Position numbers and translations under genes: made by a program. Shown here in pieces: positions 28,179 to 31,645 of a stretch of DNA of 64,000 nucleotides (positions are counted from its first letter, which is position 1; each line of letters starts with the position of its first letter). The DNA is from a virus (taxonomy: Duplodnaviria > Caudoviricetes). The stretch is from positions 29,136 through 93,135 of IMG/VR virus record IMGVR_UViG_2634166429_000001; one strand, given 5' to 3'. Below the pieces are notes generated by a model. It searched no databases. It was not told where the DNA came from and saw nothing but the letters and a program-made list of their open reading frames with translations.

Positions 28179-28940
28179 TCAGGCCTTGCGGAGGGTGTAG
28201 TTCGCCAGCATCTGCTTCAGCCCCGGAAGGTCGAACGGCGGCGTGAACCGGCCGGCGTCGACCGGGTTGTAGTAGCCGCCGTTCGGCGCGCACATCAGGG
28301 GCCGGGTGCCGGTCGCGGTGGTCACGCACTCGTACGACTCCACGGTCCCGTCCTTGTCGCGATCCTCGTTGGGATGGTCCAGGCCCAGGACATGCCCGAG
28401 TTCATGCGTGACCGCGTTCTTCCTGTACCCCTCGTTCTTCGTCGCGTCCGTGGAGAACCAGGCGGGGGTCGACCAGTACTCGGAGTCGACGAGGACGTGG
28501 CCTCCCCAGGCTGAGCCGTCTGCGACGGCGTAGCAGGGGCGTCCCTGGCTGACGCCGGTCTGGCCGGTGGGCCGGTAGGTGTAGTGGACGACGATGCGGT
28601 GGTAGGTGGGGCAGGAGGTTGCGGGGGTGGTGTCGAGGAGGGTGGAGACGGTGATGGGGACGCCGACGTCGGTGGTGACCTGGTTGGCGGGTGCGGTGAA
28701 GTACGCGGCGAGTTTGGTGCGGGCTGTGTCGTCGGCGAACACGATGGTGTACCGGTCGGGGGACAGGCTGTACACGCCGGCCGATGTGAATGCCTTCCAT
28801 CCGTTCCCTGCGTAGACGGGCCCGGTTGCGCCGTGGGCGGGTGGTGCGGAGGCGGTGAGGAGGGCCAGGACGGCGACGAGTGCGGCGGTCAGGGCGGTGA
28901 CGATACGGCGCGTACTGGGACGCGAAGGGGTGGAAGGCAT
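28179..28940 (-). CDS. Secreted matrixin-like Zn metallopeptidase
   Basis: Signal peptide (..PAHGA), HELGHVLGLDH, Met-turn PLMC. Confidence 0.85.
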   Translation of the reverse strand: MPSTPSRPSTRRIVTALTAALVAVLALLTASAPPAHGATGPVYAGNGWKAFTSAGVYSLSPDRYTIVFADDTARTKLAAYFTAPANQVTTDVGVPITVSTLLDTTPATSCPTYHRIVVHYTYRPTGQTGVSQGRPCYAVADGSAWGGHVLVDSEYWSTPAWFSTDATKNEGYRKNAVTHELGHVLGLDHPNEDRDKDGTVESYECVTTATGTRPLMCAPNGGYYNPVDAGRFTPPFDLPGLKQMLANYTLRKA

Positions 28941-28947
28941 GCCCTTC

Positions 28948-28985
28948 AGTCTGGGCACGAAACCGGGACGTGTTGCCCCTGCTCA
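28948..28985 (-). promoter_or_regulatory. Class B promoter, probably giving a leaderless mRNA
   Basis: TGAGCAGGGGCAAC-18-CAGACT-7-ATG. Confidence 0.65.
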
Positions 28986-30010: not shown

Positions 30011-30045
30011 ACCGTCCCGCTGATCCGCCGTCGTGTTGCCCCTGC
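30011..30045 (-). promoter_or_regulatory. Class B promoter, probably giving a leaderless mRNA
   Basis: GCAGGGGCAAC-18-GACGGT-7-ATG. Confidence 0.6.
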
Positions 30046-30097
30046 CCGGGGCCCGGCAGGGTGCTGGGGGCACGTCCTGCCGGGCCGGCCGTGGGTG

Positions 30098-30283
30098 TCA
30101 GCCCCACCAGGTGTCGAGGGGGGCGACTGTCGGCAGTTCGATCGTCGCGTCGGCGGTGGTGGTGTCGACGGTGACCGTGGTGGTGGTCTCGGCGGCGTGC
30201 GCGGTCGCGGTGAGTGCGGTGCCGGTGAGGGTGGCGGTGGTGAGGGCTGCGGTGGCCAGGATGCGGCGCAGGGTGGGCTTCAC
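30098..30283 (-). CDS. Small secreted peptide precursor (candidate signal), C-terminus LDTWWG
   Basis: RBS AGAAAGGGA; Sec signal MKPTLRR...TAHA-A; Thr-rich spacer; downstream hairpin GGCCCGGCAGG/CCTGCCGGGCC. Confidence 0.75.
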   Translation of the reverse strand: MKPTLRRILATAALTTATLTGTALTATAHAAETTTTVTVDTTTADATIELPTVAPLDTWWG

Positions 30284-30565
30284 GAGCGGTCCCTTTCTGG
30301 GCGTCAGCAGGGTCGGTAGGGATGCTGATGGGGCGTCTTGCCCGGTGTGTCGTACTCTGATCCGCTGCGATCCCCATGTCCGGGTGCGTGTTCTGGCAGT
30401 AGACGCGCGAGGGTGTTGGGGAGGATGTGGAGTACGAGCGCCGGGGGACGCCCCGCAGCTAATTTGCCTTACGCTGGTTCGACTCTCAACTGTTGTCGTG
30501 TGCGTGTGTGTGCATTGCGTGTTGGTGCAGTCGTGCGGTTTGTTTTGGGCGGGGGATCATAAGCG

Positions 30566-31645
30566 TTGGCCATAGATTTCGGTAAGGGTGACGCAGGGTG
30601 TTTGTCTCCGGCTGCCGTGGACGCGTTCGCGCTGATCGCGGCCGGTGAGGACCCATCGGAGCGGATGCCTGACGCGGTCGCCGAACTGTTGGAACTCGGT
30701 TTGGTGGTGCGGGATGTGCGGGAGGGTCACCGGCTGGTCCCGTTGAATCCGCGGGATGTTCTCCGACGCCGCATGATGATCGAATTCGGGGCGTTGGACG
30801 ACTGCCTGTCCCGCATGCGGAGCCTGCCCGGGACGGTGTTGGCGCTCGAGGACGCTTTCGAGCGTTCCCAGCTGCATGCCGGTGGCCGATCCGAGTTCAT
30901 TCCGGATCCGGTGGTGGTGAATGCGCGTCTTCAGGATGTGGTGGGCGGTGCGCAGTTCGAGATCCTGGCGGCGCAGCCGGCCGGGCCGCGGACGAAGGAG
31001 CACCTGGAGGCGGGCAGGGGCCGGGACACTGACGCTTTAGAACGCGGTGTCACGCTTCGGACCCTGTACCGGGCGACTGTCCGCGACAACCCGGTGACGG
31101 CGGAGCATGCCCGGATGATGGCCAACCGGCCCGACGGGCGGTCAGCCGAGTTCCGTACGCTCGCCGAACCGTTCGAGCGGGCCATCATCGTCGACCGCCG
31201 GACGGCGTTCATCTCGAACACGGTTGTGCCGGGCGCGCACGAAAACTCGGCGTGGCAGATCACTGACGGGGCTTTCGTCGCGTACGTCGTCTCGGAATTC
31301 GAATCCCGGTGGAAGCGGGCAGACCCCTGGTTCGGGGAGCTCCGGCCGCGCACGGGCTGGCCGGCCGTCGACACGGTGTCCGGGGCCCAGGGCGTACGGA
31401 CGACGAAAGAGGAGCGGGAGATCCTGCGGGAACTGTGCTCGGGCCGGGACCAGAAGGGCGCCGCACGGCAGTTGGGAATCTCCCTGCGCACGTTCAACGC
31501 GAAGGTCGCGAAGTTGCGGGAGCTGTTCGATGCGGAGTCGGTCCCGGAGCTGACTTTCAAGTGGGCGCTATCGCCGGACCGGCACGTCGACGACAGCGAA
31601 GGCGGCACGGCAGCCGCGGGCGAGGCCGGGTTATCCGCCGCCTAG
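30566..31645 (+). CDS. TrmB/PLD-like sensor domain plus LuxR HTH regulator; two TTA codons
   Basis: AVAELLELGLV; GVTLRTLY...RAIIVDRRTAFI...FESRWKRA; EREILRELCSG...AARQLGISLRTF; in-frame TTA at 31037 and 31631. Confidence 0.85.
   Translation: MAIDFGKGDAGCLSPAAVDAFALIAAGEDPSERMPDAVAELLELGLVVRDVREGHRLVPLNPRDVLRRRMMIEFGALDDCLSRMRSLPGTVLALEDAFERSQLHAGGRSEFIPDPVVVNARLQDVVGGAQFEILAAQPAGPRTKEHLEAGRGRDTDALERGVTLRTLYRATVRDNPVTAEHARMMANRPDGRSAEFRTLAEPFERAIIVDRRTAFISNTVVPGAHENSAWQITDGAFVAYVVSEFESRWKRADPWFGELRPRTGWPAVDTVSGAQGVRTTKEEREILRELCSGRDQKGAARQLGISLRTFNAKVAKLRELFDAESVPELTFKWALSPDRHVDDSEGGTAAAGEAGLSAA

What the first reader, a model, noticed from the sequence alone, without database searches (positions are those of the whole stretch)
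30098..31645. Candidate phage peptide-communication module: secreted LDTWWG peptide plus divergent TrmB-LuxR receptor
Seen: a 61-aa ORF with a strong RBS, a Sec signal peptide (AHA-A cleavage), a featureless Thr-rich spacer and a distinctive C-terminus (APLDTWWG), followed by its own hairpin. It faces a 359-aa regulator (wHTH-like N-terminus, TrmB/PLD-like middle, LuxR HTH) that is one of the few plus-strand genes in a minus-strand arm. Established: pre-pro-peptide plus adjacent cytoplasmic regulator is the layout of RRNPP/arbitrium systems, but their receptors use TPR domains. Inference: this is a non-TPR actinobacterial analogue. The C-terminal peptide would be released, re-imported and bound by the regulator to control lysis or conjugation of the element.
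Basis: partly seen in the sequence, partly recalled or inferred. Interest (0 to 1): 0.9.

Follow-up and report, generated by a model that had tools for sequence, protein, structure and literature searches.

The report
Phage-plasmid secreted DTWWG peptide and regulator
A Streptomyces phage-plasmid carries a tiny gene for an exported peptide ending in DTWWG back-to-back with an unusual regulator, a pairing that recurs across related phages and plasmids and looks like an undescribed, still untested, peptide signalling system.

Summary
Window 30098-30283(-) is a 61-codon gene: ribosome-binding site, export signal, Thr-rich spacer, C-terminus APLDTWWG. It faces a 359-aa regulator built of a winged HTH, a long helix, a PLD-like/TrmB-like domain and a LuxR HTH.

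The element is a 93-kb pZL12-like phage-plasmid.

Linkage is strong. 58 of 61 regulator homologues of at least 39% identity, with enough upstream DNA, have the same divergent small exported gene. It carries 1-4 copies of D-[TS]-x-W-(G), the last copy at or within one residue of the C-terminus. So does temperate phage Chymera (DPGWG x2, beside integrase and repressor).

Searching from the motif, 15 of 15 exported-type genes lie by the regulator.

Units within one precursor change together (50 of 59), and selection acts on the protein.

Binding, uptake and the controlled process remain untested. Three results count against a simple peptide-receptor reading:
- Most conserved PLD-domain residues are kept in peptide-less relatives.
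- There is no convergent receptor change where W arose twice.
- Leaderless 7-residue M-S-D-T-x-W-G genes occur in phages where I found no regulator.

This scan found the same cassette before on other DNA. One sister finding's bold reading was later marked down to 9/100.

The parts
30098..30283 (-). pre-pro-peptide gene, 61 codons plus stop
   Evidence: GC3 0.93; homologous small genes at the same place in 58 of 61 related loci
30194..30283 (-). export signal, residues 1-30 (MKPTLRR, hydrophobic core, AHA)
   Evidence: sequence read directly; a positive n-region and a 15-residue hydrophobic core are present in the family peptides listed; Sec or Tat not decided
30101..30118 (-). C-terminal LDTWWG; the conserved unit DTWWG is 30101-30115, directly followed by the stop
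   Evidence: the unit D-[TS]-x-W-(G) ends the precursor across the family; the closest relative L058 (65% regulator identity) also ends DTWWG
30290..30297 (-). ribosome-binding site GAAAGGGA, 6 nt before the GTG start
30039..30095 (-). GC-rich hairpin after the stop codon (possible terminator, no T-run)
   Evidence: -40.3 kcal/mol, z -1.54; no terminator-like site
30312..30547 (-). conserved intergenic control region, probably promoters plus a structured 5' leader of the peptide mRNA
   Evidence: 26 invariant columns among 52 loci whose regulators are only 40-65% identical; an 8-bp long-range helix whose variable pair is U-A in 25 and U-G in 22 sequences on the minus strand (these would be mismatches on the plus strand). 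No Rfam family
30566..31645 (+). regulator, 359 aa from the TTG at 30566. Alternative starts: TTG 30602 (where the annotated homologues L001 and L002 begin) or GTG 30617 (the 342-aa database form P0005)
   Evidence: tblastn similarity starts at residue 1 in many loci
30617..30751 (+). N-terminal winged-HTH-like domain
   Evidence: (TrmBL2/TrmB alignment)
30890..31318 (+). PLD-like alpha/beta domain corresponding to the N-subdomain of the TrmB effector-binding domain; candidate ligand site
   Evidence: 1byr, 2f5t, 3qph; weak Pfam DUF7436/TbsP_N
31406..31585 (+). C-terminal LuxR/GerE-type HTH
   Evidence: PF00196 precomputed on many homologues
28179..28958 (-). secreted zinc metalloprotease (HELGHxxGLxH), same strand, about 1.1 kb downstream of the peptide gene; accessory, possible maturation protease
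   Evidence: weak metzincin and serralysin hits; a homologue is present on the peptide side in 7 of 36 loci with at least 2.5 kb of flank, the window included

Best explanation
This is a two-gene signalling cassette of temperate Streptomyces phages and phage-plasmids. It works like arbitrium or Rap-Phr but is built from unrelated parts.

Shown:
- a small exported precursor whose selected unit is the C-terminal D-T-x-W-G (here DTWWG, one copy);
- a divergently transcribed cytoplasmic regulator with a TrmB-like/PLD-like middle domain between two DNA-binding domains;
- a strongly conserved control region of about 240 nt between them;
- tight co-occurrence of the two genes.

Inferred:
- The precursor is exported and the signal peptide removed.
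- Extracellular proteases, in some elements perhaps the neighbouring metzincin, trim it to about (L)DTWWG.
- The peptide accumulates with the density of carrier cells.
- It is taken up by a host oligopeptide permease and binds the PLD-like domain of the regulator.
- That changes transcription from the shared control region and from other targets, so that the element chooses between plasmid or prophage maintenance and lytic growth.
For: - Linkage: 58 of 61 unique regulator homologues of at least 39% identity with at least 650 bp upstream carry the divergent exported gene. The regex found 56; L071 and L090 were read by eye in the same call. It also occurs in 5 of 18 more distant homologues (L032, L045, L046, L055, L057).
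- Motif-first searches: 11 of 11 exported-type hits in IMG/VR lie by the regulator. Ten have it 446-623 bp away in the fetched locus; L114 has it on the same contig as L035. The same holds for 4 of 4 in 201 Streptomyces genomes.
- Anatomy matches Phr/AimP-type propeptides: export signal, unalignable spacer, and an active-looking unit at the extreme C-terminus. Among 65 precursors, copy number is 1 in 6, 2 in 34, 3 in 24 and 4 in 1. Tandem pheromone copies are documented for phage Rap-Phr (PMC11343458, abstract read).
- Protein-level selection: across 133 units, Gly is encoded by GGC 89, GGA 27, GGT 11 and GGG 3 times, and W is invariant.
- Units change in concert: 50 of 59 multi-unit precursors have identical cores, against a mean of 11.3 and a maximum of 22 in 2000 shuffles (not corrected for relatedness).
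- Regulator clades match peptide types. One clade (SH-aLRT 99) has DTTWG in 20 of 24 known peptides and no DTAWG or DTGWG. The other (SH-aLRT 98) has DT[AG]WG or DSGWG in 23 of 26 and no DTTWG.
- The regulator has the fold of a ligand-sensing family.
- In phage Chymera the pair sits beside the integrase and the immunity repressor.
- Leaderless 7-residue versions suggest that the unit acts inside cells.
Against: - No binding, processing, uptake or expression data exist.
- Most near-invariant residues of the PLD-like domain (R121, Q137, P138, R142, D154, Y168, R173, R205, D210, R211, D234, W249) are equally kept in 12 Kitasatospora chromosomal homologues with no peptide gene within 3 kb. Only W230, W255 and a few others are specific to the peptide-linked set.
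- W at the variable position arose twice, yet the 13 and 8 lineage-specific regulator columns overlap in none.
- A and G variants interchange often and are mixed within 6 precursors, so specificity, if any, is loose.
- The best structural relative, TrmBL2, is titled an archaeal chromatin protein in its PDB entry. That it does not sense a ligand is recalled, and the second (beta-barrel) half of the TrmB sugar site is absent here.
- Leaderless M/V-S-D-T-x-W-G genes (19 of 40 motif hits) show no regulator in the fetched stretch (0 of 19) or in the whole record (0 of 5, which had no positive control).
- A sister finding of this scan had its bold reading cut to 9/100 by a later check whose reasons I could not see.
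Confidence: 0.4

Rival explanations
1. This is a regulator-target pair, not a receptor-ligand pair. The regulator simply controls the divergent small gene through the conserved intergenic region. The exported DTxWG peptide acts on something else: a host protein, a host membrane sensor, or other phages and cells. It may still be a signal, but the neighbouring regulator is not its receptor.
For: - Divergent transcription-factor/target pairs are the commonest cause of such conserved layouts (general knowledge).
- The intergenic region is more conserved than either gene.
- The conserved polar residues of the PLD-like domain do not depend on presence of the peptide.
- Leaderless DTxWG mini-genes occur in phage records in which I found no regulator.
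- There are no convergent receptor changes.
Against: - The regulator family is large and mostly peptide-less (299 representatives at E <= 1e-30; the Kitasatospora chromosomal loci). Exported DTxWG genes, by contrast, were never found without it (15 of 15). That asymmetry fits a ligand that needs this receptor.
- Peptide type follows regulator clade.
Confidence: 0.3
2. The small exported protein is a lysogen-expressed effector rather than a signal, for example a surface-masking or decoy factor against superinfection, or an adhesive or wall-binding repeat peptide. The regulator is the element's own switch protein.
For: - Temperate phages often express small exported 'moron' proteins from the lysogeny region (general knowledge).
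- The Thr/Pro/Asp-rich spacers resemble extended linkers.
- The pair sits in the lysogeny module of Chymera.
Against: - Only the 5-residue unit is conserved, while spacers are unalignable and vary from about 10 to 40 residues.
- The last unit is followed directly by the stop codon in most precursors, which a binding repeat does not need.
- 7-residue leaderless forms cannot be surface proteins.
Confidence: 0.15
3. The small gene is the precursor of a modified Trp peptide (RiPP-like or ComX-like). The repeated core is a recognition site for a modifying enzyme encoded elsewhere.
For: A multi-core precursor with an invariant Trp. The ComX pheromone carries a modified Trp near its C-terminus (recalled).
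Against: - No modifying enzyme is conserved beside the pair; the only recurrent neighbours are the regulator, and in 7 of 36 loci a protease.
- RiPP precursors usually lack a general export signal (recalled).
Confidence: 0.05
4. Not a gene: a chance open frame in GC-rich DNA, or a DNA or RNA repeat.
For: The antisense frame has the same third-position GC; small ORFs abound in 69% GC DNA.
Against: - Start context, export signal, unit and stop position are conserved in 58 of 61 loci.
- Synonymous codon variation occurs within the unit.
- The gene is annotated as a CDS in several GenBank/RefSeq plasmids and in phage Chymera (gp30).
Confidence: 0.01

Closest known systems
Arbitrium (AimR-AimP-AimX) of Bacillus SPbeta-like phages
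   Same: Phage-borne. A small exported propeptide whose active part is the C-terminal 5-6 residues, encoded next to a cytoplasmic DNA-binding receptor and linked to the lysis-lysogeny region. Peptide variants track receptor clades. (The mechanism is as summarised in the abstract start of PMC13220667 in the listing; the rest is recalled.)
   Different: - The receptor here has no TPR domain; it is wHTH + TrmB-like/PLD-like + LuxR HTH.
- The genes are divergent, not co-directional.
- Most relatives have 2-4 units.
- No aimX-like output gene was identified.
- The host phylum is Actinomycetota.
- Nothing is shown experimentally.
Phage Rap-Phr systems with tandemly duplicated pheromones (phi3T, phi105)
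   Same: Several copies of the putative pheromone within one propeptide, matured by extracellular proteolysis (PMC11343458, abstract).
   Different: Rap is a TPR protein without a DNA-binding domain (recalled). The window's own precursor has a single unit.
Rgg-SHP and PrgX-PrgQ (RRNPP members)
   Same: The peptide gene is transcribed divergently from its receptor across a shared control region (recalled). Some of those peptides have no Sec signal, like the leaderless mini-genes seen here.
   Different: TPR-type receptors, hydrophobic peptides, Bacillota.
TrmB / TrmBL2 family of archaeal regulators
   Same: N-terminal winged HTH, a long dimerisation helix, and a PLD-like first half of the effector-binding domain.
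   Different: The second, beta-barrel half of the sugar site is replaced by a LuxR HTH. Pfam's TrmB model is not matched. The ligand, if any, is unknown.
Phage VqmA (VP882) and LuxR-type autoinducer receptors
   Same: A phage-encoded cytoplasmic receptor-regulator with a LuxR-type HTH that senses a quorum signal. The Foldseek hits 7dwm and 7r3h cover the HTH only.
   Different: Those sense small molecules made by host enzymes, through PAS or autoinducer-binding domains.

Membership tests
RRNPP / arbitrium receptors | Receptor with a TPR-type peptide-binding domain | tested here: not met
   The top PDB fold matches listed and the 17 PDB profile hits show TrmBL2/TrmB, PLD-fold and LuxR-HTH proteins; none is an RRNPP or AimR-type receptor. 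No TPR family in Pfam or NCBIfam.
RRNPP / arbitrium systems | Small gene for an exported propeptide adjacent to the receptor gene | tested here: met
   Window 30098-30283(-), 282 bp from the regulator start; 58 of 61 related loci.
RRNPP / arbitrium systems | Mature peptide derives from the C-terminal end of the propeptide | tested here: inconclusive
   The conserved unit sits at or within one residue of the C-terminus across the family, but no maturation data exist.
RRNPP / arbitrium systems | Re-import by an oligopeptide permease and direct binding to the receptor | not testable with these tools
RRNPP / arbitrium systems | Peptide-receptor co-variation (pherotypes) | tested here: inconclusive
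   Peptide type follows the two main regulator clades, which shared descent also explains. The two independent W lineages share 0 specific columns. A and G are mixed within 6 precursors.
TrmB family regulators | wHTH, dimerisation helix and PLD-like effector-domain N-subdomain | tested here: met
   Foldseek: 5bpi E 7.6e-12, 3qph 2.2e-8, 2f5t 8.7e-6. Profile against TrmBL2: E 0.0017 over residues 23-247.
TrmB family regulators | Match to the curated family model, and the complete two-lobed sugar-binding domain | tested here: not met
   No PF01978 hit; only DUF7436 (16.1 bits) and TbsP_N (14.6 bits), below their cut-offs. The model shows a LuxR HTH where TrmB has its beta-barrel lobe (TrmB layout recalled).
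LuxR/GerE C-terminal HTH (PF00196) | Four-helix HTH matching the family model | tested here: met
   20.7 bits, just under the 23.5 cut-off for this protein. PF00196 is precomputed on many homologues. Profile hits to NarL, FixJ and GerE from 2.4e-5.
pZL12-like Streptomyces phage-plasmids | Phage head and packaging genes together with plasmid partition and replication genes on a replicon of about 90 kb | tested here: met
   TerL 5.7e-100, portal 1.2e-12, major head protein 4.5e-47, ParB-like 2.7e-14, weak Rep. The genome is a single 93,135-bp contig. DNA matches to 86-93-kb Streptomyces plasmids, including pSLE1, which PMC4487206 describes as syntenic with pZL12 (passages).

The most novel reading that the evidence does not exclude
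This is the first gene-encoded peptide quorum-sensing family of Actinomycetota. It is carried by temperate phages and phage-plasmids and uses a TrmB-like/PLD/LuxR receptor unrelated to the TPR receptors of Bacillota.

Exported D-T-x-W-G peptides would report the density of carrier cells and set the choice between plasmid or prophage maintenance and lytic growth. Receptor-less phages would make leaderless 7-residue copies of the same peptide inside the cell, to jam or exploit the resident element's decision.
Probability: 0.25. Interest if true: 0.92.

Novelty: new variant of a known kind. Interest (0 to 1): 0.78.

Why it matters
Cell-to-cell signals in Actinomycetota are described as "typically ... 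small molecules synthesized by enzymes", and gene-encoded peptide signals are assigned to Bacillota (PMC10075063, passage).

A phage-borne propeptide-receptor pair in Streptomyces would:
- extend phage 'communication' beyond Bacillus;
- add a new receptor fold for peptide sensing;
- give a testable handle on how pZL12-type phage-plasmids switch between plasmid and lytic life.

The peptide is short and unmodified in sequence, so it can be synthesised and tested directly.

Even under the rival readings, this is a large, conserved and, as far as my searches show, undescribed cassette. It has an unusually conserved leader region and has unexplained 7-codon relatives in other phages.

Tried and rejected
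- Known RNA family in the intergenic region: none. One sub-threshold hit, Actino-ugpB, 19.3 bits against a gathering score of 42.5.
- Sigma-70 promoter and intrinsic terminator scans: 0 and 0 sites.
- Near-identical DNA in phage records: none.
- Pfam and NCBIfam for the peptide: nothing except a 15-bit 'WGxxGxxG' hit far below its cut-off.
- Protein atlas for the peptide: best score 0.88, a lead only.
- BFVD fold search: only PLD-fold and HTH fragments.
- Convergent-substitution test for the two DTWWG lineages: no shared column.
- Hairpin around the conserved CUGCCAG loop in the leader: mean stem 4.12 bp against 3.48 +/- 0.12 in 200 arm swaps. There are clear compensatory cases in some loci but only 2-3 bp in 22 of 50, so support is weak.
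- RNAalifold on the leader: 19 pairs, 3 with compensatory change, covariation term -0.52. This is suggestive only.
- RNA expression: no RNA holder was listed for this stretch.
- tRNA or tmRNA origin of the structured region before the leaderless mini-genes: none. Rfam: none.
- Literature. I found no paper on this cassette:
  - motif strings;
  - Streptomyces + arbitrium + phage + peptide;
  - temperate phage and communication peptide;
  - Actinobacteria peptide pheromone;
  - arbitrium-like and Actinomycetota;
  - TrmB + LuxR + Streptomyces + phage.
- The library misses most subscription journals. The pZL12 paper (Zhong et al. 2010) was not held; I know it only from the reference list and text of PMC4487206. 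Supplementary files were not consulted and may hold annotations of pSLE1 or pZL12 genes that bear on this.
- Considered and rejected: a classic Trp attenuator for the leaderless mini-genes. In several loci the sequence after the terminator reads as the end of a gene on the opposite strand.
Full report
**What is there.** The window is the last 64 kb of a single 93,135-bp record of 69% GC. It encodes a large terminase (PHROG E 5.7e-100), a portal, a major head protein (4.5e-47), a ParB-like protein and a weak Rep match. It shares DNA with 86-93-kb Streptomyces plasmids, including pSLE1. PMC4487206 describes pSLE1 as homologous and syntenic to the plasmid-phage pZL12 (passages read). So the finding lies in a pZL12-like phage-plasmid.

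**The small gene.** The small ORF is exactly as described: 30098-30283(-), GTG start, 61 codons, third-position GC 0.93, and GAAAGGGA 6 nt upstream. Residues 1-30 form an export signal (MKPTLRR, an Ala/Thr/Leu core, AHA). A Thr-rich spacer follows, and the protein ends APLDTWWG-stop. A hairpin of -40.3 kcal/mol follows the stop, but it is not better than 12 of 200 shuffles and has no T-run.

**The regulator.** The facing gene, 30566-31645(+), is the only plus-strand gene that my gene call puts between 27328 and 45647. An AlphaFold model built from 40 homologues has mean pLDDT 86.7. Its parts are:
- a winged HTH;
- a 40-residue helix;
- an alpha/beta domain that Foldseek matches to TrmBL2 (E 7.6e-12), to TrmB and to PLD-fold nucleases;
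- a disordered linker;
- a LuxR-type HTH.

No TPR is present. The one correction is that the signal may be Tat rather than Sec: RR precedes the core in 38 of 62 family members.

**Linkage.** I collected regulator homologues with flanks from four sources:
- annotated plasmids and phages;
- species-representative genomes;
- IMG/VR;
- metagenomes.

Together with the window these make 106 stretches and 99 non-identical regulators. Of the 61 regulators with at least 39% identity to the window's and at least 650 bp upstream, 58 have a small gene on the opposite strand. Its stop lies about 450-620 bp before the regulator. It has a positive N-terminus, a hydrophobic core and a Trp unit at or within one residue of the C-terminus. 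A regular expression found 56; L071 (…DTWQG) and L090 (…DTAWGS) were seen by eye in the same output. The three without the gene are L007, whose regulator match starts at residue 98, and the linear plasmids L053 and L054.

Among 18 more distant regulators (30-36% identity), 5 have the gene:
- two 130-kb plasmids (DSAWG x2);
- a 52-kb viral contig (D[ST]GWN x3);
- L032 (…DWEWG);
- the isolated temperate phage Chymera. Its gp30 (DPGWG x2) faces the regulator homologue gp29, next to the integrase and the immunity repressor.

Twelve Kitasatospora chromosomal homologues, all downstream of dnaJ-hspR, have none within 3 kb.

**Reverse linkage.** I then searched from the peptide side with the pattern for D-T-x-W-G-stop. 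In IMG/VR, 11 of 40 hits are exported-type genes, and all 11 lie by the regulator. In 201 Streptomyces genomes there were 10 hits (6 for the reversed control pattern). Four are exported-type, and all four have the regulator adjacent. The regulator family itself is large: 299 representatives at E <= 1e-30.

**What is selected.** Only the unit is conserved; the spacers cannot be aligned.
- Across 133 units W is invariant. Gly is written with all four codons: GGC 89, GGA 27, GGT 11, GGG 3. This points to selection on the protein, not on a DNA or RNA repeat.
- Of 65 precursors, 59 have 2-4 units. The window's, and that of its closest relative L058, are among the six with one unit.
- In 50 of the 59 multi-unit precursors all units share the same D-x-x-W core. 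Shuffled units give a mean of 11.3 and a maximum of 22. This control ignores relatedness.
- Rare types (DSVW, DPGWG, DSAWG, DTWWG) are repeated faithfully within their own precursor.

This is how a multi-copy pro-hormone behaves.

**Co-variation.** A maximum-likelihood tree of 65 regulators has two well-supported clades. In the first (SH-aLRT 99), 20 of 24 known peptides end DTTWG. The others are derived forms: DTWWG in the window and L058, DTCWC, and DSTWG. In the second (SH-aLRT 98), 23 of 26 end DT[AG]WG or DSGWG, and none ends DTTWG.

Shared descent of two linked genes explains this as well as co-evolution does. The sharper test fails. W at the variable position arose twice (window/L058, and L009/L016), and the 13 and 8 regulator columns specific to each lineage do not overlap. 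The window lineage does carry three changes at otherwise conserved positions (H219T, P225H, H227N), in a loop next to W230.

**Evidence that bears against a simple receptor reading.**
- Most near-invariant polar residues of the PLD-like domain are also kept in the peptide-less Kitasatospora proteins. W230, W255 and a few HTH residues are specific to the peptide-linked set.
- 19 of the 40 IMG/VR motif hits are not exported precursors. They are 7-codon genes, M/V-S-D-T-x-W-G-stop (three with two units), with a Shine-Dalgarno site and a strong terminator. They lie beside recombinase genes or overlap the stop of the upstream gene. One group is preceded by a structured RNA with compensatory changes in 11 of 43 predicted pairs.
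- None of these 19 loci shows the regulator in the fetched stretch. A profile search of five whole records found none; that call had no positive control.
- One such mini-gene (L146) lies in the same genome as a DTAWG-type phage-plasmid.

These mini-genes argue that the short unit is the active entity and that it can act inside cells. They also show that it can exist without this regulator.

**The space between the genes.** The 282-bp intergenic region is more conserved than either gene. It has 26 invariant columns among 52 loci. An 8-bp long-range pairing, GGGGCGUC with GRCGCCCC, has a variable position that is U-A in 25 and U-G in 22 sequences on the minus strand; those would be mismatches on the plus strand. 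There is also an alternative local hairpin. No Rfam family matches. I read this as promoters plus a structured leader of the peptide mRNA. The structural evidence is modest.

**Verdict.** The cassette is real, conserved and, as far as seven literature searches show, undescribed. Its logic is closest to arbitrium and to phage Rap-Phr. Tandem pheromone copies are documented for the latter (PMC11343458, abstract). It fails the defining RRNPP feature of a TPR receptor, so it is not a member of that family.
- Peptide signalling through the adjacent regulator: 0.4.
- A regulator-target pair whose peptide acts elsewhere: 0.3.

This scan has met the same cassette on other genomes several times.

No RNA run holds this DNA.

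Noticed in passing
L107, L109, L111, L113, L117, L118, L120, L123, L128, L130-L132, L134, L135, L137, L140, L141, L143, L145 (IMG/VR) and L146 (genome G006): Leaderless 7-codon genes M/V-S-D-T-x-W-G-stop (three with two units) in phage contigs. Each has a Shine-Dalgarno site and a strong terminator, and lies beside a recombinase gene or overlaps the upstream stop as GTGA. No regulator homologue was found in the fetched stretches (0 of 19) or in five whole records.
   Followed up: partly
L107:1930-2150, L109:5470-5710(-), L120:4867-5090, L131:1127-1350, L134:210-450(-) and others (alignment A4): A conserved structured RNA precedes one group of the leaderless mini-genes: an outer stem GCGGCC...GGCCGC enclosing two hairpins. 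Compensatory changes occur in 11 of 43 predicted pairs. No Rfam or tRNA match.
   Followed up: partly
window 30312-30547: The intergenic region between the peptide and regulator genes is more conserved than either gene. Its pairings are wobble-compatible only on the minus strand, and two mutually exclusive partners exist for GGGGCGUC. It may be a regulatory leader RNA of the peptide gene.
   Followed up: partly
window 28179-28958(-): A secreted zinc metalloprotease lies downstream of the peptide gene on the same strand. Homologues are present at the same side in 7 of 36 related loci, so it is an accessory part of the cassette and a candidate maturation protease.
   Followed up: partly
window 31037-31039 and 31631-31633: Two in-frame TTA (bldA-dependent Leu) codons in the regulator, at codons 158 and 356. 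9 of 66 homologues have at least one TTA. Four, the window included, have it at the equivalent spot in the C-terminal tail, E-[AD]-G-L.
   Followed up: partly
L020-L031 (Kitasatospora and one Streptomyces chromosome): Chromosomal homologues of the regulator (31-35% identity) sit directly downstream of dnaJ and hspR and have no small exported gene nearby. They are perhaps the host-side ancestors of the phage regulators.
   Followed up: no
L053, L054 (92- and 220-kb linear plasmids): Regulator homologues of about 41% identity without the peptide gene. They are flanked by an HTH gene, a sigma factor and a DUF4344 metallopeptidase.
   Followed up: no
L001, L002, L047-L052 (related plasmids): NERD-domain and DUF6233 genes recur within 1-3 kb of the cassette on the peptide side in annotated relatives.
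   Followed up: no
L004:2510-2750(-), L108, L126: Further unit variants: …PFDTCWC (two Cys), DTHWG x2, and DPNWG/DTNWG. The variable position tolerates T, A, G, W, H, N, C and V.
   Followed up: no
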